From Candidatus Eiseniibacteriota bacterium (GTDB taxonomy: Bacteria > Eisenbacteria > RBG-16-71-46): 64,000 nucleotides of DNA. The notes beneath the pieces are model-generated. The model saw only the letters and a program-made list of their open reading frames with translations. It ran no database searches and was not told the DNA's origin. The stretch's first letter is position 1, and every line of letters starts with the position of its first letter. Positions 5,483 through 47,161 of this stretch are shown one piece after another. The DNA lies in contig DASXQT010000075.1 in NCBI GenBank assembly GCA_036507005.1, forward strand, positions 37,178-101,177, in the 5' to 3' direction. A program made the translations under genes and the position numbers.

Positions 5483-5815
5483 TCAGGAAGGGATCGCCCG
5501 GCGCGACGAGCGCGCCGGCCTGCGGGACTCCCCGAGCGTGCGCTCGATGGTATGAAGCTGCATGGCCTGCTCGGCCACGAGAGCGCGCAGTCGCGCGTTC
5601 TCCTCGCGCAGCCGCCCCATGAGCGCCCGATCGAGCGGCTTCGTCCCCGCGAGCCGGGCCTTCCAGCGGAAGTAGGTCCGGCGGCTGATCCCGTGCGCCC
5701 GCAGGAAATCAGACCGGTCCACGGCCATCTCGATCTCGCGGAGCAGGGCGACGATCTGCTCCGGGGTGCGTCGCGGCCTCTTCAAGGTCGGACCGGCTCC
5801 TCCGGCCCGGGGCAT
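5483..5815 (-). mobile_element. isolated IS3-family transposase OrfA-like HTH protein (IS remnant, no OrfB/DDE partner)
   Basis: 111-aa minus-strand ORF from ATG 5815: MPRAGGAGPTLKRPRRTPEQIVALLREIEMAVDRSDFLRAHGISRRTYFRWKARL...LREENARLRALVAEQAMQLHTIERTL. This is the typical IS3/IS911 OrfA helix-turn-helix plus leucine zipper. No integrase-core ORF follows. Confidence 0.55.
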
Positions 5816-6076
5816 GGGAATCTCCGCCGTCGCCTGTCCCGGTCGAGCGCCCCGGCTCCTCGTCCAGGTCGCGGCTGGCGGGGTGGTCGGCAGACGCCGC
5901 CGGGCGGGAATCGGCTCGGCACGTCGATTCCCACCCGATTCGGTCGTCTGATTCGCGCTCAATCTACACAAGTGCGGTTGAGCCGTTCTTGAGGCACCTC
6001 CGTAGCGGGTTGGGCCGCAGCGAGATCGCGGGCTTGAGCGGCGGCGCCCGCGGGGGGGACGCGGGCGCCGGGATGC

Positions 6077-6751
6077 CTACCGATAGAGCGCCTTGAGCAT
6101 GCCCCAGGTCGCGCGGGCGCTCGGGGTCGAGCAGACCACGTCGCTGTGGGCGGTGGAGAGAATCACCTCCTCGCCGGTGCCCAGGATCAGGTGCAGCGCG
6201 TTGACCGTGATGTCGATCGAGTTCGGCACCGTGATCTGCTCGTTGATGATCAGGGTCGCGACGTTCGCGATCACCACGGTCTGGTTGGGCTGGCCGGTCA
6301 CGGTGACGGAGCTGCCGCCAAAGGTCAGATCCGTGACCACGCTCGACCCGCTGGCCCCCGAGCAGTCGGCGTGCGAGTCGGCGCGCACCACGGAGGCCGT
6401 CACCTGGGCGGGCTGGCCCGGGAACGCCACCACGTTCTCCTGAGAAGCGGAGCTGTTGGCCACGCCGCTGCCGCCGCTGGTGCTCGCCGTGATGGTGTGC
6501 GAGCTGAGCGTGTTCTGGAGCTGGATGGTGAGCAGCGTCGCTGAGAGCGAGCCCCCCTGGGGGGGGAGGTCGCCGGTGTCGGCGAAGACCAGGATGTTGG
6601 GGCCGGGGTTGACCAGCTTGACTGTGGCGCCAGTCGCCCGGCCGCTGTAAGCGGTCGCGCCGGACGTGGACACCAGGCTGGCGAGCAGCAGCGCGGCCGC
6701 CACGCCCCCCGTGATGAGACGCTGCAGTGGAGTCGTACGAGTGTGCTTCAT
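6077..6751 (-). CDS. secreted hypothetical protein (signal peptide, Ser/Thr/Gly-rich beta-rich)
   Basis: 224 aa. RBS GGAGG 8 nt before ATG 6751. N-terminus MKHTRTTPLQRLITGGVAAALLLASLVSTSGATA reads as a Sec signal peptide. No conserved catalytic motif recognised. Confidence 0.6.
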   Translation of the reverse strand: MKHTRTTPLQRLITGGVAAALLLASLVSTSGATAYSGRATGATVKLVNPGPNILVFADTGDLPPQGGSLSATLLTIQLQNTLSSHTITASTSGGSGVANSSASQENVVAFPGQPAQVTASVVRADSHADCSGASGSSVVTDLTFGGSSVTVTGQPNQTVVIANVATLIINEQITVPNSIDITVNALHLILGTGEEVILSTAHSDVVCSTPSARATWGMLKALYR

Positions 6752-6842
6752 GGCCGAAACCTCCCTCGGCGCGCGGCGCCGGTGCGGGAACGGGGGATGT
6801 CTCGCTTCCTATATTGTAGCGCAGCGAGCGTCTCCCGGGGCG

Positions 6843-6872
6843 CTTGAGTGCCACTTGAGTGCCACTTGAGTC
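6843..6872. repeat. tandem 11-bp direct repeat (cttgagtgcca x2 plus cttgagtcc)
   Basis: Read directly in the sequence. Lies in the 615-bp non-coding divergent region between the minus-strand secreted-protein gene and ybeZ. Confidence 0.6.
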
Positions 6873-7293
6873 CGGTCCGCCCGGGGCCGGCTCGCGCACG
6901 GCGATCGCGTTGCTGGATCGCGAATTGGCACAGGCAAACCGAATTGCTGGATCCGCACGGCGCCGTCGCGACATGTGCCGCGGAAGTGTCACTAGAGCGG
7001 CGCTACATCGAGGCCCGGGGGCGCCGATTCGGCGCGGGCGCCGGGCCCCTGCGGGGCACCGGCGGTCGCCCTCAACCGCCCGCGCGGGGGCGCCGATAAC
7101 CCCCGCGGAGGCAGGGTTCGGCGCAATCATCGCCCACAAATTGACGGTGGGCATGGCCTGTGCTAGCTTGAGTTCGCCGTTGGGGATCGAGGCGGTGAGC
7201 ATGCCGAGCCCGCGATCACGCAACGGGAGAGCAAGTCTCTGGACCCTATCGGGTTGAACCAAAAACCACCAGCCGTCACGCCAGTCGCTCATG

Positions 7294-7344
7294 CTCTTGA
7301 CCTGGCCCTTCCCGGGGCCCCCACGGTCAAGAGTTTTGCGTTTT
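7294..7344 (+). terminator. hairpin plus T-tract (intrinsic-terminator/attenuator-like) 23 nt upstream of the ybeZ start
   Basis: Perfect 9-bp inverted repeat CTCTTGACC ... GGTCAAGAG (7294-7302 and 7325-7333) with a 22-nt GC-rich loop, followed by TTTTGCGTTTT (7334-7344). Confidence 0.35.
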
Positions 7345-7366
7345 ACCCGGCCGCGAGGTTGCTCCC

Positions 7367-8458
7367 TTGATCGTTCGAAAGTTCCCGGTCGAACACGTCG
7401 AGCCGGTGTCGCTGCTCGGCCAGAACGACGCCAACCTCCGGCAGATCGAGCGCGCGCTCCCGGTGCGCATCACGCTCCGCGACGGGACCATCACCGTGGC
7501 GGGCGAGGACGAGGCGGTGAACTCCGCCGCGCGCGCCCTGCGCGAGCTGCTCGACCTGGCCGAGCGCGGCAAGGTGATCGAGGAGGCGGACGTCATGACC
7601 GCGCTCGGCCAGTCGCGCCGCAACGGCAACGCCCCGCGACTCGCGGACGCCTACGAGGGCGCGCCCGGCTACAGCTTCGACCGCAAGGGCGTGCGCGCCC
7701 GCACCCCGACCCAGGCCGAGTACCTGAAGGCCCTCGAGGAGCACGACGTGGTGTTCGCGATCGGCCCGGCCGGCACCGGCAAGACGTATCTCGCGGTGGC
7801 GGCCGCGGTGAACGCGCTGCGCACCCGCAAGGTGGACCGCATCGTGCTCGTGCGCCCCGCCGTCGAGGCGGGCGAGAGCCTGGGCTTCCTGCCCGGCGAC
7901 ATGCAGGAGAAGGTGGATCCCTACCTGCGCCCGATGTACGACGCGCTCTCCGACCTGATGTCGTTCGACAAGATGCGCCGCTACATCGAGCTGGGCGTGA
8001 TCGAGATCGCGCCGCTCGCCTTCATGCGCGGGCGCACGCTCCACAACTCGTACGTGATCCTCGACGAGGCCCAGAACACCACGGTGCGCCAGATGAAGAT
8101 GTTCCTCACCCGCATGGGCGTGAACTCGCGCGCCGTGATCACCGGCGACGTCACGCAGATCGACCTGCGCGATCCCGACAGCTCGGGGCTGGTGAAGATC
8201 CAGACCATCCTCTCGGGTGTGCCGGGCGTGCAGTTCGTCTACTTCCACCCCGAGGACGTGGTGCGCCACCGCCTGGTGCGCGAGATCATCCGCGCCTTCG
8301 AGGCCTTCCACGCCCGCCAGAACGGCAAGGTCGAGGACGGCGTGGGCACCGCGCTCGATCCCCGCGAGGCGGAGGACGCCGCCGAGCCGACGCGCGCCGA
8401 ACCGCAGCCTCCCGGGGCCGCGGAAGGCGGCGAGACCGGGCGCGGACCCTCGATCTGA
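7367..8458 (+). CDS. ybeZ: PhoH-like ATPase (YbeZ family)
   Basis: 363 aa, TTG start. Walker A VVFAIGPAGTGKTYLAVAAAV and the PhoH signature VILDEAQNTT. Conserved operon partner of the 7TM-HD protein and ybeY. Confidence 0.9.
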   Translation: MIVRKFPVEHVEPVSLLGQNDANLRQIERALPVRITLRDGTITVAGEDEAVNSAARALRELLDLAERGKVIEEADVMTALGQSRRNGNAPRLADAYEGAPGYSFDRKGVRARTPTQAEYLKALEEHDVVFAIGPAGTGKTYLAVAAAVNALRTRKVDRIVLVRPAVEAGESLGFLPGDMQEKVDPYLRPMYDALSDLMSFDKMRRYIELGVIEIAPLAFMRGRTLHNSYVILDEAQNTTVRQMKMFLTRMGVNSRAVITGDVTQIDLRDPDSSGLVKIQTILSGVPGVQFVYFHPEDVVRHRLVREIIRAFEAFHARQNGKVEDGVGTALDPREAEDAAEPTRAEPQPPGAAEGGETGRGPSI

Positions 8459-8488: not shown

Positions 8489-10714
8489 ATGACCGAAACG
8501 GACGTCGCCCCGCTGCCCGCCCTGCCCGATCGCGCGCGATCGGTGCGTTGGGGCTACTACGCGGTTCGCGCCCTGCTCGTAATCGTGCTGCTCGCGCTCG
8601 CGGGCGCGCTGCCGCGCGGCCCGCGCACCCCCGAGCGCTACCGCTACCGCGAGGGGGAGATCGCGCGCGAGCGCGTGGTCGCGCCCTACGACTTCCGGGT
8701 CGAGAAGGACGAGCCCACGCTGCGCCGCGAGCAGCAGCAGGCGGCGGCCGCCGTGCCTCCGGTGTTCATGGTGGACGCGCGCGCCTCTTCCGAGATGCTG
8801 AGCCGCTTCGCCGCGTTCCAGCAGCAGGCGCTCGCCGCGGTGCTCGACTCCGCGCTTCCGCCCGCCGGGCGCGCGGCGCGGCTCGGGGCGCTGGGCGTCC
8901 CGCTCACCGAGGAGAGCGCGGCGGCGCTCGCGGCCCCCGGCCGCGCGCGGCGCACCCTCGAGCTGCTCGGCGAGTGGCTGCGGGCGGTGTACGAGTCCGG
9001 CATCGTGGTCGAGAAGCGCGGCGACCAGCTTCTCGGCTACGACACCGTGAACGTGCGCGAGGGCGAGCGTGAGACACCGCGCACGGCGAGCGGGCTCTAC
9101 GACCGGCGCGAGGCGCTGGCCTTCATCGAGCGCCGCGCGCACAGCGCGTTCTCCGGCGACGCGCAGGGCCAGAAGCTGGTGGGCGAGATGGCCGCGCCCT
9201 TCGTCCAGCCCAGCGTGCTCTACGACCGCGCCGAGACCGAATGGCGGCGGGTGCAGGCCCAGTCCCAGGTGCCGGCCACCATCGGGTTCGTGCAGAAGGA
9301 CGAGCTGCTGGTGGACGCGAACCAGCGGGTCACGCACGATGCGCTGCTCAGGCTGCGCTCGCTGCGCAACCTCGAGGAGGCCCGCCGCGGGCGCAGCGAT
9401 CACCTCTACCCGCCGCTCGCGCGCATGCTGCTCATCCTGCTCTTCATCGCCGTGTTCTCGAGCTACCTGCGCATGGAGCTGCCGGGCGTCTACCGCGACA
9501 ACGCCATGCTCGCCATGTTCACCCTGCTCACCGCGGTGGTGATGGTGGTGAGCGAGGCTCTGGTGGGCGTGCTCGGGGTCTCCGAGTTCACGGTGCCGCT
9601 GGCGCTCGCGCCCCTGGTGGTGGCCTCGCTGCTCGAGAAGCGGCCGGCGCTGGTGTTCACGCTGGTGCTCGCGGTCGCGGTCTCCGCCGTGGGCGAGATG
9701 CACGCGCCGTTCGCTCCGGTCGCGGCGCTGAGCGGCGTGACCGCCGTGTACTCGGTGTCGCGCCTGCGCCACCGCTGGCACTTCGCGCGCGCCACGCTCA
9801 CCATCGCCGGCGCCACGCTCGCTGCCATCCTGGCCTGGGACCTGGCGCGGGCGGTGCCGCTCTCCACCCTGGCGCGCGACGCGCTGTGGGGCGGGCTCAA
9901 CAGCTTCCTCTCGGTGTCGATCGCGTTCCTGCTGCTGCCGCCGGTCGAGCACCTCTTCGGCCTCACCTCCGACATCACGCTGCTCGAGCTGTCCGACCTC
10001 AACCGCCCGCTCCTCAAGCGCCTGCAGCTCGAGGTGCCCGGCACCTACCACCACAGCATGGTGGTGGGGAGCCTGGCCGAGGCCGCGGCCGAGGCGCTGG
10101 GCGCCAACTCGCTGCTGGCGCGGGTGTCGGCCTACTACCACGACATCGGCAAGCTCTCGAAGCCCGAGTACTTCGCCGAGAACGAGCCGGTCTCCTCGCG
10201 CAGCCGCCACGAGAAGCTCGCGCCCAGCATGAGCGCGCTGGTGGTGCGCTCGCACATCAGCGAGGGCCTGGAGCTGGCGCGCAAGGAGCGCCTGCCCCGC
10301 GCGGTGCAGAACGCGATCCCCGAGCACCACGGCACCATGGTGATGGCGTTCTTCTACGTGAAGGCGCAGGAGCTTGACGCCGCCGTGCGCCGCGAGGACT
10401 ACTGCTACCCCGGCCCCAAGCCGCGCTCGCGCGAGACCGCGATCCTGATGCTCGCCGACGGCGTCGAGGGCGCCTCGCGCGCGCTCGCCGAGCCCACGCC
10501 GAGCCGCATCCGCGGCCTCGTCACGCGCATCATCGAGGAGCGCGTGCAGGAGGGCCAGCTCGACGACTGCGGGCTCACGCTCCAGGAGCTGGCCAAGATC
10601 CGCGAGGCCTTCATCCCGGTGCTGACCGCGATCTTCCACGTGCGCGCGCCCTACCCCGAAGATCCGCGCAAGCGCGCGCGCGCCGACGCCGAGGCGCGCC
10701 GCGAGCCCTCGTAG
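8489..10714 (+). CDS. pgpH: 7TM receptor with intracellular HD hydrolase (PgpH/YqfF family, HDIG domain)
   Basis: 741 aa. Multi-TM central region followed by the HD domain HHSMVVGSLAEAAAEALGANSLLARVSAYYHDIGK. Confidence 0.85.
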   Translation: MTETDVAPLPALPDRARSVRWGYYAVRALLVIVLLALAGALPRGPRTPERYRYREGEIARERVVAPYDFRVEKDEPTLRREQQQAAAAVPPVFMVDARASSEMLSRFAAFQQQALAAVLDSALPPAGRAARLGALGVPLTEESAAALAAPGRARRTLELLGEWLRAVYESGIVVEKRGDQLLGYDTVNVREGERETPRTASGLYDRREALAFIERRAHSAFSGDAQGQKLVGEMAAPFVQPSVLYDRAETEWRRVQAQSQVPATIGFVQKDELLVDANQRVTHDALLRLRSLRNLEEARRGRSDHLYPPLARMLLILLFIAVFSSYLRMELPGVYRDNAMLAMFTLLTAVVMVVSEALVGVLGVSEFTVPLALAPLVVASLLEKRPALVFTLVLAVAVSAVGEMHAPFAPVAALSGVTAVYSVSRLRHRWHFARATLTIAGATLAAILAWDLARAVPLSTLARDALWGGLNSFLSVSIAFLLLPPVEHLFGLTSDITLLELSDLNRPLLKRLQLEVPGTYHHSMVVGSLAEAAAEALGANSLLARVSAYYHDIGKLSKPEYFAENEPVSSRSRHEKLAPSMSALVVRSHISEGLELARKERLPRAVQNAIPEHHGTMVMAFFYVKAQELDAAVRREDYCYPGPKPRSRETAILMLADGVEGASRALAEPTPSRIRGLVTRIIEERVQEGQLDDCGLTLQELAKIREAFIPVLTAIFHVRAPYPEDPRKRARADAEARREPS

Positions 10715-10805: not shown

Positions 10806-11258
10806 ATGCTGGTGCGCGCCGCGCTCGCCGCGGAGGGCCGGCGGGCGGGCGAGATCGGCGTGGTGCTCGCCGCCGACGCCGAGCTGCGCGCCCTCAATCG
10901 CCGCTGGCGCGGCATCGACCGCGCGACCGACGTGCTGAGCTTCGAGTACGGCGAGCGCGACGGGCGCCGCGTCTCCGGCGATCTCGTGATCTCGATGGAT
11001 CGCGTGGGCGAGCAGGCGCGGCGCTTTCGGGTGACCGAGGGGCGGGAGCTGGCGCGGCTCGCCGTCCACGGCGCGCTCCATCTCGCGGGGCTCGATCACG
11101 CAAGGCCCGGCGAGCGGCGCCACATGCGGCTGCGCGAGGACCGGGCGCTGCGCGCCGCGGCCGCCGCGGTGCGGGCGCTCGAGCGCGCGCTCGCGCGCGG
11201 GCGCGGACGACAACAGGGCGTGGTCTCGGCGTCACTTTCGCGCGCAACCCAAACCTGA
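10806..11258 (+). CDS. ybeY: endoribonuclease YbeY (rRNA maturation factor)
   Basis: [11 protein letters not shown] zinc-binding motif. The conserved YbeY N-terminal residues (STITLKAPRG...) lie upstream of the first ATG/GTG/TTG, in frame, at about 10746-10805. The true start is probably non-canonical or upstream. Confidence 0.8.
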
Positions 11259-11316
11259 TAGAACCCGCATCATGCTACGCGGCGCCGCCATCATTCCTGC
11301 CGAACGCATCCAGTCC

Positions 11317-11793
11317 ATGATTCTCCTCATTCGAGGAGAGAAGGTGATGCTCGACCAGGACCTTGCCAATCTCTACGGAACGACTACCAAGAGGCTCAAC
11401 GAGGCCGTGAAGCGTAACCGAAGGCGCTTCCCGCCCGATTTCATGTTCGAGCTTACGCATCAAGAGGTTGCGGGTTTGAGGTCGCAGATTGCGACCTCAA
11501 AGCTCTCAGCCCGCGGGGGCCGCCGCTACCTGCCGCACGTGTTCACCGAGCAGGGAGTCGCGATGCTCTCCTCGGTTCTCAATAGCGAACGCGCCGTCCA
11601 GGTCAACATCCTCATCATGCGTGCTTTCGTGAAGCTCAGGCGACTTCTGGCCACGCACGCGGAGCTGGCCCGGAAGCTCGACGCGCTCGAGCGAGAATAC
11701 GACGCGCAGTTCAAGATCGTTTTCGATGCCATCCGAGAACTCATGGAGCCGCCCGAGCCCAAGAAGCGCCGGCTCGGATTCCGCAGCGACTGA
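11317..11793 (+). CDS. ORF6N (KilA-N-like) domain protein
   Basis: [47 protein letters not shown] is the ORF6N signature. GC is clearly lower than the flanks. Start taken at ATG 11317 (the track's ORF begins at 11272). Confidence 0.7.
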
Positions 11794-12694: not shown

Positions 12695-12789
12695 ATCCCG
12701 CGCCCATCCGCGCGACGTGACCGCCGCACCCCGGACGCGCTACATTTGCCTCGGCTACTCACCCCATCTCCGAGGAGAGAGATCGACCG

Positions 12790-13536
12790 ATGACGCCCCC
12801 CCAGAAAAAGCGCGCCCGTGGCCCCGGGGTCATGGGCCGGATGCGCAACTACCTGCTCGCCGGGATCCTGGTGCTGCTGCCCTCGGCGCTCACGGTCTGG
12901 GTGCTGCTCCTGCTCTTCAACCGGGTGGACAACCTGCTCGGCCGCTACCTGCGCTTCGAGTTCCTCGACTACCGGCGCATCCCGGGGCTCGGACTGCTCG
13001 CCACGGTGCTGCTGCTCATGCTCGTGGGCTGGGTGGCGTCGTGGATCGGCGCCCGCCCGCTGGTGCGCATGTGGGACCGGCTGTTCACCCGCATCCCCGG
13101 CATCGGGATCGTCTACGGCTCGACCAAGTCGCTGGGCGAGGCGTTCCTGAACCAGCAGGAGCAGGCGTTCCGCCAGGTCGTGCTCGTGCCCTGGCCGCAC
13201 CCCGGCATGTGGCGCATCGGGTTCGTCACCGGGCCCCCGGGCCCGGACGTGCGCGGGCTGCTCTCGAGCGACATCGAGGTGGTGTTCGTGCCGCACACGC
13301 CCAATCCGGCGTCGGGGTTCGTCCACTACGTCCCGCGCAAGGACATCATCTACCTCGACTGGCCGATCGAGGACGGGCTCAAGGTGATCGTCTCGGGGGG
13401 CGTCGTGCAGCCCGACATGGAGCGCGTGAACGCCACGCGAGCCGCGCGCGGTCTCGAGCCGGCCGCCCCGCACCCGCTGGCGTCGGGGCAGGCGGGGCCG
13501 GAGGGCGCTCCGGCCTCCGGAGCCGCCGAGGGCTGA
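12790..13536 (+). CDS. DUF502 family membrane protein
   Basis: 248 aa. RBS GAGGAG. Two N-terminal TM helices then the DUF502 core ([18 protein letters not shown]...[13 protein letters not shown]). Confidence 0.8.
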
Positions 13537-13538
13537 CC

Positions 13539-14314
13539 GTGGCGCTGGTCCAAAGCGAAGGGATCGTCCTCAAGACTCACGCGCTCGGCGACACCAGCCG
13601 GATCGCGGTGGTCTACACCCGCGAGCGCGGGATGGTGAAGCTGGTGGCGAAGGGCGCGCGCAAGACGCCGAGCCGCTTCGGCTACGCGCTCGAGCCGCTG
13701 ACCCGCGGGCGCTACGTCTACTACTGGAAGCCCGACCGCGACCTCCACCTGCTCTCGCAGGCCGACACGATCGCGCCCACCGGGAGCCGGCTCACGGAGC
13801 TCACGCGGCTCGCGCACGCCGAGGCGGCGATCGAGCTGATCGACCGCCTGGTGTGGGGCGAGGAGCCGCACGCCGAGCTGTTCGATCTGCTCGCCGTGAC
13901 CCTCGAGGCGGTGACCGCGGCCCCGGCCGAGGGGCTCGCGGCGCTCACCATCGCCTTCGAGCTCCAGGTCGCGAGCCTGCTCGGCTACCGCCCGCGGCTC
14001 GACGCCTGCGCGCGCTGCGGCGGGGCGCTCTCGCCGCGGCGCCTGTTCTCGCCGGCGATCGGCGGGTTGCTGTGCGACCGCTGCGCCGCGACCGAGGCCA
14101 CCGTGACGCTCTCGGCCGACGCGCTCGCGGGCCTCGCGCTTCTGCTCACGCGGCCGGTGGCGGAAGCCGGCGCCTACCTCGAGGTGCGGCGCACGGGCGA
14201 GATCCTGCGGGTGGTGGATGCGTTCCTCCGGCATCACTTCCAGCGCTTCCGCGGGCTGCGCTCGCTCGACATGCTGCGCGCCCTGCCCCGCGCGCGCTCC
14301 GACGAGGAGACGCC

Positions 14315-14327
<13 letters not shown>
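13539..14327 (+). CDS. recO: DNA repair protein RecO
   Basis: GTG 13539 is 2 nt after the DUF502 stop. N-terminal OB fold ([36 protein letters not shown]) and the C-terminal zinc motif CARCGG...CDRC. The long 12717..14327 ORF is only an upstream open extension. Confidence 0.85.
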
Positions 14328-19725: not shown

Positions 19726-23519
<3,794 letters not shown>

Positions 23520-36027: not shown

Positions 36028-38001
36028 GTGGCCACCGAAACGATTCCTGCGGCCGAAGCGCCGCGCACCGCCGAAGAGATCGAGCGCGAGTGGTTCGAGA
36101 CCGTCTACGCCGGCGACCGCATGCCGCAGCTCACCCCGCGGGCGGTCGTGATGGGCATGCTGCTCGGCATGCTCATGGCGTGCTCCAACGTCTACGTGGG
36201 CCTCAAGGCGGGGTGGAGCCTGGGGGTGGGGATCACCTCGTGCATCCTCGCCTACAGCATCTTCGCCACGCTCCACCGGACGATGCCGCGGCTCTTCCCG
36301 CCCTTCAGCATCCTCGAGAACAACTGCATGCAGTCGTGCGCCTCGGTCGCGGGCGTGATGACGAGCGGAGGGCTCGTGAACGCCATCCCCGCGCTCATGA
36401 TGCTCAACGCCACGGCCCTGCCCCTCGACTTCAGGCAGCGCTGCCTGTGGCTGATCCCGTGGATCGTCTGCATCTGCTGGATGGGCGTGTTCCTGGCCGT
36501 GCCGGCCAAGCGCCAGATGATCAACGTCGAGAAGCTCCCGTTCCCGACCGGGACCGCGGCGGCGGCCACGCTGCGCGCGCTCCACACCAAGGGCGAGACC
36601 GCCGCGCGCCAAGCGTCCTCGCTCGGCATCGCGGGGCTGATCGGGGCGGTCATCACCTGGATGCGGGACGCCGAGTTCAGCTTCCTCAAGATCACCACAC
36701 TCGCGGGCGCGCCGGACTGGTCCCCGGTCAAGGGGCTGGTCACCCCGGCCTGGGGCTGGTGGCAGGGCCATCTCCCGTGGCTGGGCTATCCCAAGATCGA
36801 GTCGGTATGGGGCACGAGCTGGATCAAGCTCGGGCAGTACAAGGACAAGCTGCTCGGCTTGAACCAGGTCACGATGTCGCTCGAGGGCTCGCTGCTGTTC
36901 GTCGCCGCGGGCGCGATCATCAGCTTCCGCCAGGCGTGGAGCATGCTGCTCGGGGCGGTGATCAACTACGGCGTGCTGGCCCCGTACTTCCTGCGGGCCG
37001 GGGTGATCGAGGCCCCGAGCTTCCGCAAGATCTCCTCCTGGAGCCTGTGGATCGGGGTCCCGATGATGGTGACCTCGGGCCTGCTGCTCTTCTTCATGAA
37101 CTGGAGGACCGTGCTGCGCGCCTTCAGCACCATCACGGCGTTCCTCAAGCGCAAGGCCGGCGTCGACCCCATGGACCGCATCGAGGTGCCCGGATCGTGG
37201 TTCCTGGGCGGATTCGCCGCGCTGGGGGTGGTGATCGTGATCCTCGGCCACGGCCTGTTCCACATCACCTGGTGGATGGGCGCGATCGCGGTGCTCGCCA
37301 CTTTCCTGCTGGTGGTGGTCGCGGCGCGCGCCACCGGCGAGACCGACGTCACGCCGGTCGGCCCCTTGAGCAAGATCACCCAGCTCACCTTCGGCGCGAT
37401 CAAGCCGGGCGACATCACCGTGAACCTGATGACCGCCAACATCACGGCCGGAGCCACGGGCTGCGCCGCCGAGCTGCTCACGGACCTGAAGAGCGGCTAC
37501 CTCCTGGGCGCCAAACCGCGGCAACAGTTCTTCGCGCAGCTGTTCGGCGTGCTCGCGGGCGGCCTGATCGTCGTGCCGGTCTACTTCATCCTGATTCCGA
37601 CCGTGGACCTGCTCGGCACCGAGCGCTGGCCCGCGCCCGCGGCGCTGGTGTGGCGCGGCGTGGCCGAGCTGCTCGCCAAGGGCGTGGGCGCGCTGCCGGT
37701 CTCGGCGCGCTGGGGGCTCCTGATCGGGGGCGTGATCGGGATCCTCCTGCCCCTGCTCGAGATGGCGTTCCCGAAGCACAAGAAGTTCATGCCGTCCGCG
37801 ACCGGGCTCGGGCTCGCGTTCACCATCAACGGCTTCAACTCGATCTCGTTCTTCCTCGGCGCCACCCTCGCCCTGTGGTTCAGGAAGGCGCGTCCCCAGC
37901 TCGCCGAGCAGTACACCATCCCGGTCTCCTCCGGCATCATCGCGGGCGAGAGCCTGATGGGCGTGCTGATCGCGCTCTTGACCATCGCCGTGGCGCGCTG
38001 A
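36028..38001 (+). CDS. OPT family oligopeptide transporter
   Basis: RBS GGAGAG plus GTG 36028. Roughly 16 TM helices. The N-terminus EIEREWFETVYAGDRMPQLTPRAVVMGMLLGMLMACSNVYVGLKAG is typical of the OPT family. Confidence 0.8.
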   Translation: MATETIPAAEAPRTAEEIEREWFETVYAGDRMPQLTPRAVVMGMLLGMLMACSNVYVGLKAGWSLGVGITSCILAYSIFATLHRTMPRLFPPFSILENNCMQSCASVAGVMTSGGLVNAIPALMMLNATALPLDFRQRCLWLIPWIVCICWMGVFLAVPAKRQMINVEKLPFPTGTAAAATLRALHTKGETAARQASSLGIAGLIGAVITWMRDAEFSFLKITTLAGAPDWSPVKGLVTPAWGWWQGHLPWLGYPKIESVWGTSWIKLGQYKDKLLGLNQVTMSLEGSLLFVAAGAIISFRQAWSMLLGAVINYGVLAPYFLRAGVIEAPSFRKISSWSLWIGVPMMVTSGLLLFFMNWRTVLRAFSTITAFLKRKAGVDPMDRIEVPGSWFLGGFAALGVVIVILGHGLFHITWWMGAIAVLATFLLVVVAARATGETDVTPVGPLSKITQLTFGAIKPGDITVNLMTANITAGATGCAAELLTDLKSGYLLGAKPRQQFFAQLFGVLAGGLIVVPVYFILIPTVDLLGTERWPAPAALVWRGVAELLAKGVGALPVSARWGLLIGGVIGILLPLLEMAFPKHKKFMPSATGLGLAFTINGFNSISFFLGATLALWFRKARPQLAEQYTIPVSSGIIAGESLMGVLIALLTIAVAR

Positions 38002-44796: not shown

Positions 44797-47022
44797 CTAG
44801 CCGAGCACGACCAGCTTGCGCACGATGCTCTGGCCCGCCACGCGCAAGCGGTAGATATACAGTCCGCTGCGCCGCCCGACCGCCGACCACCTCACCGTGT
44901 GGCGGCCCGCCGCGCGCGTTTCGTCGACCAGGGTCGCGACCGTACGGCCGCCGACATCGAACACGTCCAGCTGCACGGGGCCTGCGCTCGGCAGTGTGAA
45001 CTCGATGGTGGTGCCCTCGTGCAGGGGATTGGGTCCTGCCTTCGCCGTCAGCAGCAGGCCTGGAGCTGGATCAACCCCCACGTTGCTGTCGATGTGTCCG
45101 TGCAGCACCACGCTCTGCGCCACCATCTCGGAGCTGCTCTGCTGCACCACGTACAGGCGCGAGTCCACCGCCCCTCCCTCCACCGGGCTGTAGGTCACCT
45201 GCACCAGCGTCGTCTCGTCCGGCGCCAGCGTCACCGGCAGCGGGCCGCTCACCAATGTCGCACTGAAGGTGCTGTCGGTGGTACGCAGGCAATCGATACT
45301 GATCGTCTGATTCCAGTGGTTCCACACCTTCAGCAACATGACACCGCTGCTGCCCACCGCGGGCGCACCGATGTCCATGCTCTGCCGGTCGGTCAGAATG
45401 CGGTTCGTGCGCCACGGGAAGCGGAACGCGCGGTAGTTCACCAGCCCGGACGGGAATTGCAACTCCGCCGCGATCGTGCCGTCGGCGAGAAGGTCGGTCA
45501 TCTGCGGATTGCTGAACGTGCCGCCCCAGCCGATCGTCACGCCGCCGTCGGGGTGCACCTGAACGTTCCCCATGAAGCCGCCGTACACATCGGGCACGTG
45601 CCGATACTCCCACACCTTGGTCGCCACGAAGTTCTGCTCGTCGACCACGAACTCCAAGGCACGGCTGTACCGGGGCGAGAGGTTGTTGCCGTTGTCGAAC
45701 AACGTCAGGTGACCGTTGGGCTGGACGCGCGCATCGTGCTGATGCGACCAGCCGCGCGTCTCGTTGGGAAACTTGAACATGTTGTTCAACGCGTTGAGCC
45801 CCATGCGCCACAGGACCGCGCCACTCTGCCGGTCGATCTTGGTGAGCTCGTTCAGGTGCCGGCTCGAGATGAGCAGATTGCCGTCCGGCATCATCTCCAC
45901 CGAGTTGCCGTGCACGTAGTCGATCCCGCTGGCCAGCAGGTTAATGTCCGGCGACGACCTGGCGTCGGTGATCTTGAAGTGGTCCCAGCTGCGCCACTGG
46001 AAGACCACGTCCTTGTTCTCGTCCAGCTCCTGCACGATCAGCCCGATCACGATGCAGTTGGGGTTGCCACCCGACACCACGGTGTCCATGCCCACGGGCT
46101 CAGGGTCGTACGACATGATGAGCGCGTGGCCGTTGGGCAAGATTTGGAGGTCGTGCAGGTCTGGCGAATAGCCGTTGCCGGTGGTGAAGCTGTCGACGCG
46201 GGCATACGCGCTATCCAGCACGAGGAACTTGAAGGCGCCGTTCATCCAGAACGAGAGCCGGCCGTCGGGCTGCACCTTGAAATCGAAAGGTATCGAATTG
46301 GCGTCGTAGCTCGCCTCATAGAGCGGTTGCCCGCGGTCATCCATGATCTCGAAATCCGCGCGATTCGAGGGTCCGAGCACCCACGGTGCGATGAAGAAGA
46401 CGCCGGGCTGGGAATTGCTGACGTTCACCAGATGGAGCGCCGGGAATCCCGGCAGGAGCGTGTCGCATGGCTCCCCGCTGTCCTGAATGGCGACCCCCGG
46501 CCGCAGCCACGACGGGTTGTCCGCGGGCGGGTCCGGCATCCGCTCGGACGCAGGCCGCGGCATGAGCCTGGGGTCGACGGTCGAGACCCGGAACTCGTAG
46601 GCGAGCTCCGGCAGCGTCGTGCCCGCAAGCGTGCGCGTTCCGGCGGCCAGGCGCACGCGCACCCTCTCACCCAGGGCGTAGGGCTGGTCGGGTGTGAACA
46701 GGATCGTCTGGCCGTCGCTCGCGAGCCTGAGCCGGCCGGCGTGCGGGCCGCTCTCGCCGCCCACGACCGACAGCCGGCGAGCGTCCAGGCTGGCGGGATC
46801 CAGGGCGCTGGCCTGCCTTATCACCAGATTGTTCCAGCGCGACACCTTGTCGGCGCCGGGAACGGGCGAGAGATACAGAAAAGCACGAGGCGCGGCCGCC
46901 GCGGGCGGCCCGAAGCTGGCGATGAGCGCGAGGATTGCGAAACTGATCGACGGAGGGCTGGAGCGCACGACGGCCCCCTTTCTCGGTCCGACGTCCTGCG
47001 GAGCCGTTCTCGTTGGGGACAT
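44797..47022 (-). CDS. arylsulfotransferase (ASST) family protein with T9SS C-terminal sorting domain
   Basis: Signal peptide after ATG 47022 (the ORF could extend to 47067). ASST-like beta-propeller region. C-terminus NPLHEGTTIEFTLPSAGPVQLDVFDVGGRTVATLV...GLYIYRL. Confidence 0.7.
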   Translation of the reverse strand: MSPTRTAPQDVGPRKGAVVRSSPPSISFAILALIASFGPPAAAAPRAFLYLSPVPGADKVSRWNNLVIRQASALDPASLDARRLSVVGGESGPHAGRLRLASDGQTILFTPDQPYALGERVRVRLAAGTRTLAGTTLPELAYEFRVSTVDPRLMPRPASERMPDPPADNPSWLRPGVAIQDSGEPCDTLLPGFPALHLVNVSNSQPGVFFIAPWVLGPSNRADFEIMDDRGQPLYEASYDANSIPFDFKVQPDGRLSFWMNGAFKFLVLDSAYARVDSFTTGNGYSPDLHDLQILPNGHALIMSYDPEPVGMDTVVSGGNPNCIVIGLIVQELDENKDVVFQWRSWDHFKITDARSSPDINLLASGIDYVHGNSVEMMPDGNLLISSRHLNELTKIDRQSGAVLWRMGLNALNNMFKFPNETRGWSHQHDARVQPNGHLTLFDNGNNLSPRYSRALEFVVDEQNFVATKVWEYRHVPDVYGGFMGNVQVHPDGGVTIGWGGTFSNPQMTDLLADGTIAAELQFPSGLVNYRAFRFPWRTNRILTDRQSMDIGAPAVGSSGVMLLKVWNHWNQTISIDCLRTTDSTFSATLVSGPLPVTLAPDETTLVQVTYSPVEGGAVDSRLYVVQQSSSEMVAQSVVLHGHIDSNVGVDPAPGLLLTAKAGPNPLHEGTTIEFTLPSAGPVQLDVFDVGGRTVATLVDETRAAGRHTVRWSAVGRRSGLYIYRLRVAGQSIVRKLVVLG

Positions 47023-47161
47023 GGCGATCTCCGGACACCGGCATCCGTACCGGGCCGTGTATCCCATTAATAGAGTATATCGGCGCGAACGGGAACCGTC
47101 GAGATGCGTTTATTAGGGCTGTCCGCCCTCGGGTTGCATTTTCCGCGGCGCGATTCGGAGT

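What the first reader, a model, noticed from the sequence alone, without database searches (positions are those of the whole stretch)
6752..7366. 615-bp non-coding divergent region with tandem 11-mers, palindromes and a terminator-like hairpin just upstream of ybeZ: possible sRNA or leader attenuator
No credible ORF lies in this region, although it is the longest non-coding stretch in an otherwise tightly packed window. It contains (a) the tandem repeat cttgagtgcca x2.7 (6843-6872); (b) two copies of GCGCCGAT, one inside the perfect palindrome GCGCCGAtTCGGCGC (about 7035 and 7090); (c) direct repeats of TTGCTGGATC (6909 and 6945); (d) a sigma70-like TTGACG-N17-TAGCTT at about 7150-7178; and (e) a 9-bp perfect inverted repeat CTCTTGACC/GGTCAAGAG followed by TTTTGCGTTTT ending 23 nt before the ybeZ TTG start. 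Elements (d) and (e) would delimit a transcript of roughly 170 nt. Alternatively (e) is an attenuator in the ybeZ leader.
Basis: seen in the sequence. Interest (0 to 1): 0.55.

Follow-up and report, generated by a model that had tools for sequence, protein, structure and literature searches.

The report
Conserved phoH leader with terminator hairpin
The last 300 bases before the phoH/ybeZ gene hold two promoter-like motifs and a roughly 170-base untranslated leader ending in a terminator-like hairpin, all conserved in every related Eisenbacteria locus examined and absent from the RNA family database, so this is a real but still uncharacterised control element for a ribosome-maturation operon.

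Summary
They do not form one element.

**phoH leader (7141-7345).** The promoter (d) and hairpin (e) are strongly conserved.
- In 79 of 82 Eisenbacteria-type phoH loci, a TTGAC-N17/18-TGnTAnnnT promoter is followed about 170 nt later by the hairpin GCUCUUGACC...GGUCAAGAG plus a U tract. The other three loci lack upstream DNA.
- The hairpin sits 33-39 nt before the start codon in most loci.
- The inner stem covaries. U·G pairs place the structure on the + strand.
- The element is absent from 78 phoH loci of other phyla, and Rfam has no match.

**Second promoter-like motif (7071-7099).** Its right half equals the sigma-28 -10 consensus, and its internal spacing is fixed.

**Other features.** The tandem 11-mers are CTCAAG direct repeats that belong to the divergent choice-of-anchor-P gene and are conserved upstream of its homologues. 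The TTGCTGGATC repeats and the palindrome are not conserved.

**Best reading.** This is a cis-acting phoH-pgpH-ybeY leader with an attenuator-type hairpin whose effector is unknown and probably a protein. No RNA-only antiterminator, upstream ORF, aptamer-like core or 16S mimicry was found. An sRNA by-product remains possible. It would be a new member of a known kind, of moderate interest.

The parts
6843..6872 (-). Three direct repeats of CTCAAG (read on the - strand) with an 11-bp period, 92-121 nt upstream of the ATG (6751) of the divergent choice-of-anchor-P gene. This is a cis-regulatory element of that gene, not of phoH.
   Evidence: TRF finds 2.6 copies. In the closest relative L081 the hexamers are kept while the spacers vary. 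CTCAAG-N5-CTCAAG lies about 95-115 nt upstream of the ATG in 4 of 4 further homologue loci, L161-L164. The gene family is NF040603.
7071..7099 (+). Promoter-like bipartite motif CTCAAC (7071-7076)-N15-GCCGATAA (7092-7099). It is of the sigma-28/FliA type by its -10 half. The inferred start site is about 7107.
   Evidence: It is present with fixed internal spacing in 56 of 63 leaders. Its distance to the sigma-70 -10 varies from 46 to 88 nt. Under a strict pattern, 43 of 44 occurrences in 843 kb of loci are upstream of Eisenbacteria phoH. The -10 consensus GCCGATAA, and the 21-nt start-to-start distance to the -35 in P. aeruginosa fliC, come from PMC12784957.
7141..7169 (+). Sigma-70-type promoter with an extended -10: TTGACG (7141-7146), a 17-nt spacer, TG (7161-7162) and TAGCTT (7164-7169). 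The inferred start site is about 7176.
   Evidence: In 62 distinct leaders TG is at 98-100% and T1, A2 and T6 of the hexamer are at 100%. The TTGAC spacer is 17 nt in 45 of 63 leaders and 18 nt in 14.
7176..7345 (+). Leader RNA of about 170 nt (inferred transcript from the sigma-70 promoter to the U tract).
   Evidence: Alignments A4 and A5. Model R1 hits 79 of 82 related loci, 0 of 78 phoH loci of other phyla, and no second site in the window. Rfam has no match.
7177..7226 (+). P1, a variable 5' hairpin. The base stem pairs 7177-7182 with 7221-7226.
   Evidence: MFE fold. RNAalifold on 37 type-1 leaders gives 6 pairs with several pair types, paired in 62-84% of sequences on an imperfect alignment. 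In a second lineage it is replaced by two hairpins.
7239..7257 (+). Conserved blocks CTGGACC (7239-7245) and GGGTTGA (7251-7257), possibly forming a short hairpin P2.
   Evidence: GGGTTG is nearly invariant in 61 leaders. The P2 pairs are mostly invariant, so they are untested by covariation.
7258..7292 (+). Linker of about 35 nt that is C-rich and G-poor, with no consistently predicted pairing.
   Evidence: Mean composition is C 41%, G 18%, A 26%. C exceeds G in 60 of 61 leaders. No consensus pairing was found.
7293..7334 (+). Conserved hairpin. The outer 10-bp stem pairs 7293-7302 with 7325-7334. There is a 1-nt 5' bulge. The inner stem pairs 7304-7309 with 7314-7319. There is a 5-nt 3' bulge at 7320-7324.
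   Evidence: -29.8 kcal/mol, z = -4.08. On 61 sequences, 94.7% of cells are paired, 8 pairs show double changes, and 52 cells are compensatory against 18.7 in shuffles. Slid controls pair at 27-57%. The + strand folds 4-11 kcal/mol better than the - strand.
7334..7344 (+). Interrupted U tract, TTTTGCGTTTT.
   Evidence: In 56 distinct short-spacer leaders the mean is 3.7 U in the first 4 nt and 6.8 U in 10 nt. It is eroded in 12 long-spacer leaders.
7355..7369 (+). Shine-Dalgarno GAGG (7355-7358) and the phoH TTG start (7367-7369).
   Evidence: Read directly from the sequence. Relatives have GTG at the same place and the same N-terminus, M-I-V-R-K-F-P.
7367..8458 (+). phoH/ybeZ, the first gene of the phoH, 7TM-HD (pgpH-like, 8489-10714), ybeY (10806-11258) operon.
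   Evidence: Pfam PhoH E = 6e-93, 7TMR-HDED/HD, and YbeY.

Best explanation
Bases 7141-7366 are the promoter and 5' leader of the phoH-pgpH-ybeY operon.

A sigma-70-type extended -10 promoter (7141-7169) starts a leader of about 170 nt. A second motif at 7071-7099, of the alternative-sigma (sigma-28) type, would add a longer leader under some condition.

The leader consists of:
- a lineage-variable 5' hairpin;
- two short conserved blocks (CUGGAC, GGGUUGA);
- a C-rich, unpaired linker of about 35 nt;
- a very stable hairpin followed by UUUUGCGUUUU, ending 22 nt before the start codon and 10 nt before the Shine-Dalgarno sequence.

Every phoH transcript must pass this hairpin. I infer that it acts as an intrinsic-terminator-type attenuator: most transcripts stop at about 7340-7345, and read-through sets operon expression.

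No conserved RNA-only antiterminator exists. The outer stem sequence is frozen while the inner stem is free to covary. I therefore infer that the switch is operated by a protein that recognises the 5' arm or the hairpin itself.

Shown: conservation, covariation, strand, promoter signatures and linkage to phoH. Inferred: transcription start sites, termination and the effector.
For: - **Conservation of the layout.** The element is in 79 of 82 related loci, and the other 3 lack upstream DNA. The upstream genes differ between loci.
- **Promoter signature.** TG, T1, A2 and T6 are 98-100% conserved, with 17/18-nt spacing to TTGAC.
- **Hairpin pairing.** 94.7% of cells are paired, 8 pairs carry double changes, and the slid controls collapse. 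The hairpin is the only helix with about 0.9 mean pairing probability.
- **Strand.** U·G pairs and a better fold on the + strand.
- **Hairpin strength.** Mean -25.8 kcal/mol with 6.8 U in the next 10 nt across 56 leaders.
- **Position.** In most loci only 33-39 nt separate the 3' arm from the start codon, which leaves no room for another promoter.
- **Specificity.** Absent from 78 phoH loci of other phyla, and there is no second copy in the window.
Against: - There are no RNA data, so start sites and termination are inferred.
- The U tract is interrupted after 4 U.
- Twelve long-spacer leaders keep the hairpin, although weakened, and have poorer U tracts. The hairpin may therefore have a function other than termination.
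- No conserved alternative partner for the 5' arm was found.
- Changes in GGGUUGA are not compensated in the arm.
- The effector is unknown.
- The sigma-28 assignment rests on the -10 half only. The -35 is CTCAAC, not TAAA. No sigma-28 gene or flagellar gene was seen in the parts of the window I annotated.
Confidence: 0.55

Rival explanations
1. The unit is mainly a trans-acting small RNA of about 170 nt, made from its own promoter and ended by its own terminator. Its conserved unpaired blocks (GGGUUGA and the C-rich linker) would pair with targets elsewhere. phoH would be expressed only by read-through.
For: - It has a complete promoter plus a terminator-like hairpin.
- It has conserved single-stranded blocks and a C-rich linker next to the terminator, as in many sRNAs.
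- No antiterminator was found, which fits an efficient terminator.
Against: - It is always fused to phoH at a fixed short distance and never occurs elsewhere.
- phoH has no other promoter, so the unit is in any case the phoH 5' UTR.
- No targets were sought or are known.
Confidence: 0.2
2. The hairpin does not terminate transcription. It would be a sequence-specific protein-binding or processing site in the phoH mRNA. Possible roles are autoregulation by PhoH (KH-like N-terminus) or YbeY, an RNase III site, a 5' stabiliser, or a BoxA-like NusB/NusE site coupled to Rho acting on the C-rich linker.
For: - The outer stem sequence and the 1x5 internal-loop geometry are conserved far beyond what pairing requires.
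- The hairpin persists where the U tract is eroded.
- The 5' arm GCUCUU matches the first six positions of the gamma-proteobacterial BoxA consensus GYTCTTTAANA (PMC5725501).
- The linker is rut-like: C-rich and G-poor.
- The PhoH N-terminus gives a weak KH_1 hit, E = 0.008.
Against: - The BoxA match fails at positions 7, 9 and 11, and the sequence is buried in a stem.
- The KH hit is below Pfam's cut-off.
- Most leaders do have 4 U directly after a hairpin of -26 kcal/mol.
- Nothing here tests protein binding.
Confidence: 0.2
3. The leader is a riboswitch. A small molecule would bind the 5' part and flip the terminator. Candidates are c-di-AMP or (p)ppGpp, given the PgpH-like gene downstream.
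For: The length and layout, a structured 5' part followed by a terminator, resemble riboswitches. The downstream gene is a 7TM-HD protein.
Against: - The 5' half is the least conserved part and differs in architecture between lineages.
- There is no conserved multi-helix core and no alternative pairing with the terminator arm.
- No Rfam riboswitch matches, even at E up to 10.
Confidence: 0.04

Closest known systems
Intrinsic-terminator attenuators in 5' leaders of bacterial operons (protein-dependent types such as the BglG/SacY, PyrR or TRAP systems)
   Same: A promoter, then a leader of about 170 nt, then a GC-rich hairpin plus U tract just upstream of the first gene's ribosome-binding site. 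All transcripts of the operon must pass it.
   Different: None of those systems' RNA motifs is present, since Rfam gives no hit. No antiterminator helix overlapping the terminator was found. The effector is unknown.
BoxA/Nus-factor-controlled leaders (rrn leaders and the suhB 5' UTR in E. coli; PMC5725501)
   Same: The hairpin's 5' arm begins GCUCUU, like BoxA (GYTCTTTAANA). A C-rich, G-poor stretch lies next to it. The regulated genes act in ribosome maturation.
   Different: Only 7-8 of 11 consensus positions match. The sequence is the arm of a stable stem rather than single-stranded. The Eisenbacteria BoxA is unknown.
[quoted passage not shown]
   Same: The same gene pair, phoH/ybeZ followed by ybeY. 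[quoted passage not shown] Here a second, alternative-sigma-type motif precedes the housekeeping promoter.
   Different: The -10 half here equals the sigma-28 consensus GCCGATAA, not the sigma-32 one. To my knowledge, no structured leader is described for the E. coli operon.
Sigma-28 (FliA/SigD/WhiG) promoters
   Same: GCCGATA(A/C/T) lies at a fixed 21-22 nt from an upstream hexamer, the same geometry as P. aeruginosa fliC (PMC12784957).
   Different: The upstream hexamer is CTCAAC rather than TCTAAAG/TAAA. The gene is not a motility gene. No sigma-28 gene was identified.

Membership tests
Intrinsic (Rho-independent) terminator / attenuator | Stable GC-rich hairpin on the transcribed strand | tested here: met
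   -29.8 kcal/mol, z = -4.08. Mean -25.8 kcal/mol in 56 leaders. Covariation. The + strand folds better than the - strand.
Intrinsic (Rho-independent) terminator / attenuator | U-rich tract directly 3' of the stem | tested here: met
   UUUUGCGUUUU. Mean of 3.7 U in the first 4 nt and 6.8 U in 10 nt. It is interrupted, and weaker in 12 long-spacer leaders.
Intrinsic (Rho-independent) terminator / attenuator | Mutually exclusive antiterminator structure | tested here: not met
   In folds truncated before the 3' arm, no partner of the 5' arm exceeds 0.14 mean probability. The GGGUUGA/arm pairing is weak and not compensated.
Intrinsic (Rho-independent) terminator / attenuator | Transcripts end at the U tract in vivo or in vitro | not testable with these tools
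   No RNA data are available.
Sigma-70 promoter (extended -10) | TTGACa, 17±1 nt, TGnTAnnnT | tested here: met
   Window 7141-7169.
Sigma-28 (FliA-type) promoter | -10 element GCCGATAA | tested here: met
   7092-7099. G-CCGATA is kept in 56 of 63 leaders. The consensus is from PMC12784957.
Sigma-28 (FliA-type) promoter | -35 element TAAA/TCTAAAG at the right distance | tested here: inconclusive
   The distance fits, 21-22 nt start to start. The conserved hexamer is CTCAAC, which shares only the central AA.
Sigma-28 (FliA-type) promoter | The organism encodes the sigma factor, and the motif recurs at other regulon genes | not tested
   Only 64 kb of the genome is held. There is one site in the window, and none of the window genes I annotated is flagellar.
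Riboswitch | Conserved aptamer core with covarying helices, coupled to an expression platform | tested here: not met
   The 5' half varies in architecture. Only the terminator is a consensus helix. Rfam gives no hit.
6S RNA | Long rod with a central bubble; match to the Rfam 6S models | tested here: not met
   No hit at E up to 10. The fold is two separate hairpins rather than a rod, and the z-score of the whole leader is only -1.39.
BoxA (NusB/NusE site) | Match to the BoxA consensus in a single-stranded context | tested here: inconclusive
   GCTCTTGACCT against GYTCTTTAANA: positions 1-6, 8 and 10 fit, and 7, 9 and 11 do not. The sequence is a stem arm. The consensus varies between phyla.
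BoxA (NusB/NusE site) | Same sequence in the organism's own rRNA leader | not testable with these tools
Independent trans-acting sRNA gene | Own promoter and terminator | tested here: met
Independent trans-acting sRNA gene | Genomic independence from the downstream gene | tested here: not met
   It is always 33-104 nt upstream of phoH and never elsewhere.

The most novel reading that the evidence does not exclude
The leader is a new protein-responsive attenuator. The frozen outer stem (GCUCUUGACC/GGUCAAGAG) would be read by a ribosome-biogenesis factor, for example a BoxA-type NusB/NusE complex or the KH-like N-terminus of PhoH itself. Synthesis of the 16S-maturation machinery (PhoH, YbeY) would then be tied to the state of ribosome assembly, with a second, alternative-sigma promoter adding stress or developmental input.
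Probability: 0.15. Interest if true: 0.7.

Novelty: new member of a known kind. Interest (0 to 1): 0.45.

Why it matters
PhoH/YbeZ and YbeY are near-universal ribosome-maturation factors, and their regulation is poorly understood outside E. coli. This element gives a sharply defined, clade-wide conserved control region in an uncultivated phylum. It comprises two promoter-type motifs, a leader of about 170 nt and a sequence-frozen hairpin, and it is not in Rfam. It could be added as a new cis-regulatory RNA family. It is small enough to test in vitro for termination and for protein binding. It also shows that the 615-bp gap is three unrelated regulatory modules plus filler, which matters for annotating such regions.

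Tried and rejected
- **Known RNA family.** Rfam at gathering threshold on the window, at E up to 10 on 6600-7500, and at E up to 5 on 14 homologous loci found nothing on the leader.
- **6S RNA.** No model hit, and the fold is not a rod.
- **Leader peptide.** The frame from the TTG in GGGTTGA to the TGA overlapping the phoH start is open in the window. It is closed or out of frame in 33 of 61 leaders.
- **Mimicry of the 16S 3' end (h45/anti-SD).** Local alignment gives a mean z of 0.0 over 61 leaders.
- **RNA-only antiterminator.** No consistent partner for the 5' arm. The GGGUUGA/arm helix has 3 G·U pairs, and variants are not compensated.
- **Long-range pairing of CUCAACC (7071) with GGGUUGA (7251).** One compensatory case (L100) but several mismatching lineages. 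The fixed spacing to GCCGATAA favours a promoter.
- **Hairpin GCGCCGA...TCGGCGC (7090-7124) as a conserved structure.** TCGG lies downstream in only 24 of 54 loci.
- **A promoter inside the hairpin using its TTGACC.** There is no -10 at the right distance.
- **Sigma-54 reading of the 11-mers (TGGCAC-N5-TGGCA on the - strand).** Not kept in L081 or L161-L164, where only CTCAAG is conserved.
- **Second copies.** GCTCTTGACC at 37974 is inside a coding region. The other GCCGATA sites lack the bipartite context.
- **Spread beyond the clade.** Nothing in 78 phoH loci of other phyla.
- **Literature.** No paper links phoH to an RNA motif, or Eisenbacteria to non-coding RNAs of this kind.

Full report
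**Observation**

The region was read directly, and every listed feature is there.
- The 11-mer CTTGAGTGCCA occurs 2.6 times at 6843-6871.
- GCGCCGAT occurs at 7021 and 7090. The first copy is inside the palindrome 7021-7035, and both lie in a 16-nt repeat.
- TTGCTGGATC occurs at 6910 and 6944.
- The 9-bp inverted repeat occupies 7294-7302 and 7325-7333 and is followed by TTTTGCGTTTT.

The hairpin folds at -29.8 kcal/mol with z = -4.08. The simple consensus scans missed both the promoter and the hairpin because of their own rules.

**Setting**

The flanking genes are a divergent secreted choice-of-anchor-P family protein (6077-6751, - strand) and phoH/ybeZ (7367-8458). phoH is followed by a 7TM-HD (PgpH-like) gene, ybeY, an ORF6N gene, a TonB_C gene, recO and glyS. 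PhoH is 77% and 72% identical to two Candidatus Eisenbacteria genomes, and a homologue of the neighbouring protein carries that organism name.

**What is conserved**

A metagenome scan with the PhoH N-terminus gave 80 further loci with 59-90% identity. In all loci with enough upstream DNA the same layout precedes phoH, although the upstream genes differ.

A covariance model of the 3' two-thirds of the leader (R1) gave these results:
- It hits 79 of 82 such loci at E ≤ 1e-6. The other three have under 20 nt of upstream sequence.
- It hits none of 78 phoH loci from other phyla.
- It finds no second site in the 64-kb window.

Rfam has nothing on the window or on 14 homologous loci.

**Promoter**

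Across 62 distinct leaders, the TG and the T1, A2 and T6 of the -10 hexamer are 98-100% conserved. TTGAC lies 17 nt (45 leaders) or 18 nt (14 leaders) upstream, and the spacer varies freely. This is the signature of an extended -10 sigma-70 promoter. I infer a start site near 7176.

**Hairpin**

- On 61 leaders, 94.7% of cells pair. Eight of 16 pairs show changes on both sides.
- 52 cells are compensatory against 18.7 ± 3.4 in shuffles.
- Sliding the partner by one to three columns drops pairing to 27-57%.
- The variation is unevenly distributed. The inner stem carries many pair types, whereas the outer stem GCUCUUGACC/GGUCAAGAG is almost invariant, with a constant 1-nt 5' bulge and 5-nt 3' bulge.
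- U·G pairs and energies 4-11 kcal/mol better on the + strand place the structure on the phoH-sense RNA.
- In 56 distinct leaders with a short spacer, the stem averages -25.8 kcal/mol and is followed by 6.8 U in 10 nt.
- In 12 leaders an insertion puts 63-104 nt between the 3' arm and the start codon. In these, both stem and U tract are weaker, but the hairpin is still present.

**Rest of the leader**

The 5' part forms a hairpin whose base covaries within one lineage (7177-7182 with 7221-7226) and is replaced by two hairpins in another. Two short blocks, CUGGAC and GGGUUGA, are conserved. They are followed by a linker of about 35 nt with 41% C and 18% G in 60 of 61 leaders. Averaged pairing probabilities recover only the terminator as a consensus helix.

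**Mechanism**

In most loci only 33-39 nt lie between the hairpin's 3' arm and the start codon, and these hold the Shine-Dalgarno sequence. phoH therefore has no other promoter, and every operon transcript must traverse the hairpin. The most economical reading is an attenuator of the intrinsic-terminator type.

I looked for the usual switches and did not find them:
- no conserved alternative partner for the 5' arm;
- no compensated pairing with GGGUUGA;
- no conserved upstream ORF;
- no aptamer-like core;
- no resemblance to the 16S 3' end.

The frozen outer stem next to a free inner stem argues for sequence-specific recognition, most likely by a protein. Two leads remain untested.
- The 5' arm shares GCUCUU with the BoxA consensus GYTCTTTAANA (PMC5725501), and BoxA is known to vary between phyla (PMC7665894).
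- The PhoH N-terminus gives a weak KH hit (E = 0.008, below the cut-off).

A stable sRNA by-product of termination is equally compatible with the data.

**Second promoter-like motif**

Upstream of the sigma-70 promoter, nearly all loci carry CTCA(A/T)(C/T)-N15/16-GCCGATA(A/C/T). Its internal spacing is fixed, and its distance to the sigma-70 -10 varies from 46 to 88 nt. Under a strict pattern, 43 of 44 occurrences in 843 kb of loci are at this place.

GCCGATAA is the sigma-28 -10 consensus, and the 21-nt start-to-start distance equals that of the P. aeruginosa fliC promoter (PMC12784957). The -35 half differs from that consensus.

I read this as an alternative-sigma promoter, with about even confidence. 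It fits the stress-inducible character of ybeY in E. coli (PMC5101352).

**Other listed features**

The tandem 11-mers read CTCAAG ×3 on the - strand. In the closest relative the hexamers are kept while the spacers change. CTCAAG-N5-CTCAAG recurs about 95-115 nt upstream of the ATG in four of four further homologues of the choice-of-anchor-P gene, which sit in unrelated neighbourhoods. The repeats therefore belong to the divergent gene. Their one-turn phasing suggests a site for a transcription factor that binds direct repeats.

The stretch 6876-7068, which holds the TTGCTGGATC repeats and the palindrome, does not align even with the closest relative. I regard it as unconstrained spacer.

**Verdict**

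The finding is real. The element is a new, clade-specific member of a familiar class, and its mechanism is still open.

Noticed in passing
window 5977-5993 (read on the - strand): A second CTCAAG-N5-CTCAAC direct repeat lies just upstream of the HTH_Tnp_1 ORF (5483-5971, - strand), next to the choice-of-anchor-P gene. An HTH_Tnp_1 gene also lies near the homologous gene in L161. The HTH protein might be the regulator that binds these repeats.
   Followed up: partly
L094, L098, L101, L106, L118, L123, L126-L130, L137, L141, L147 (between hairpin and phoH start): A subgroup of leaders has 63-104 nt between the conserved hairpin's 3' arm and the start codon, against 33-39 nt in most other loci. 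In the members I read (for example L118, L123, L126) the extra stretch appears to hold a second GC-rich hairpin. In these leaders the conserved hairpin and its U tract are weakened.
   Followed up: partly
window 7013-7028 and 7082-7097: A 16-nt repeat (GCCCGGGGGCGCCGAT / GCGCGGGGGCGCCGAT) places a degenerate copy of the GCCGAT -10-like element 69 bp upstream of the conserved one. The upstream copy is not conserved in the closest relative.
   Followed up: partly
window 7258-7292 and the same position in 60 of 61 leaders: The linker before the hairpin is C-rich and G-poor (41% C against 18% G), like a Rho-loading site. This is unusual in a genome where G and C are otherwise balanced.
   Followed up: partly
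window 6077-6751 (- strand): The public gene call for this protein is 208 aa (P0001, 100% identical, on a 196-kb contig) and starts 16 codons downstream of the ATG at 6751. Relatives of 224-226 aa align over the full length, so the longer start looks right.
   Followed up: no
window 11272-11793 (+ strand): An ORF6N-domain gene sits between ybeY and the TonB_C gene, inside an otherwise widely conserved phoH...ybeY...recO...glyS arrangement. It may be an insertion.
   Followed up: no
window 12717-14327 (+ strand): The recO reading frame is 536 aa, but the RecO domains cover only residues 277-510. Either the true start is far downstream or there is an unannotated N-terminal part or a separate gene.
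   Followed up: no
upstream of CTCAAC in L143-L159, L127, L129, L147: A further conserved block, GTGTnnCAACAC (or GTCAAC), lies about 40-100 nt upstream of the sigma-28-like motif in several lineages but not in the window. It could be a factor site or the -35 of a divergent promoter.
   Followed up: no
window 44797-47067 (- strand) and 19726-22734 (+ strand): Two large secreted proteins carry domains associated with secreted proteins: Por_Secre_tail, a secretion-system C-terminal sorting domain, on one and FlgD_ig on the other. None of the window genes I annotated is flagellar.
   Followed up: no
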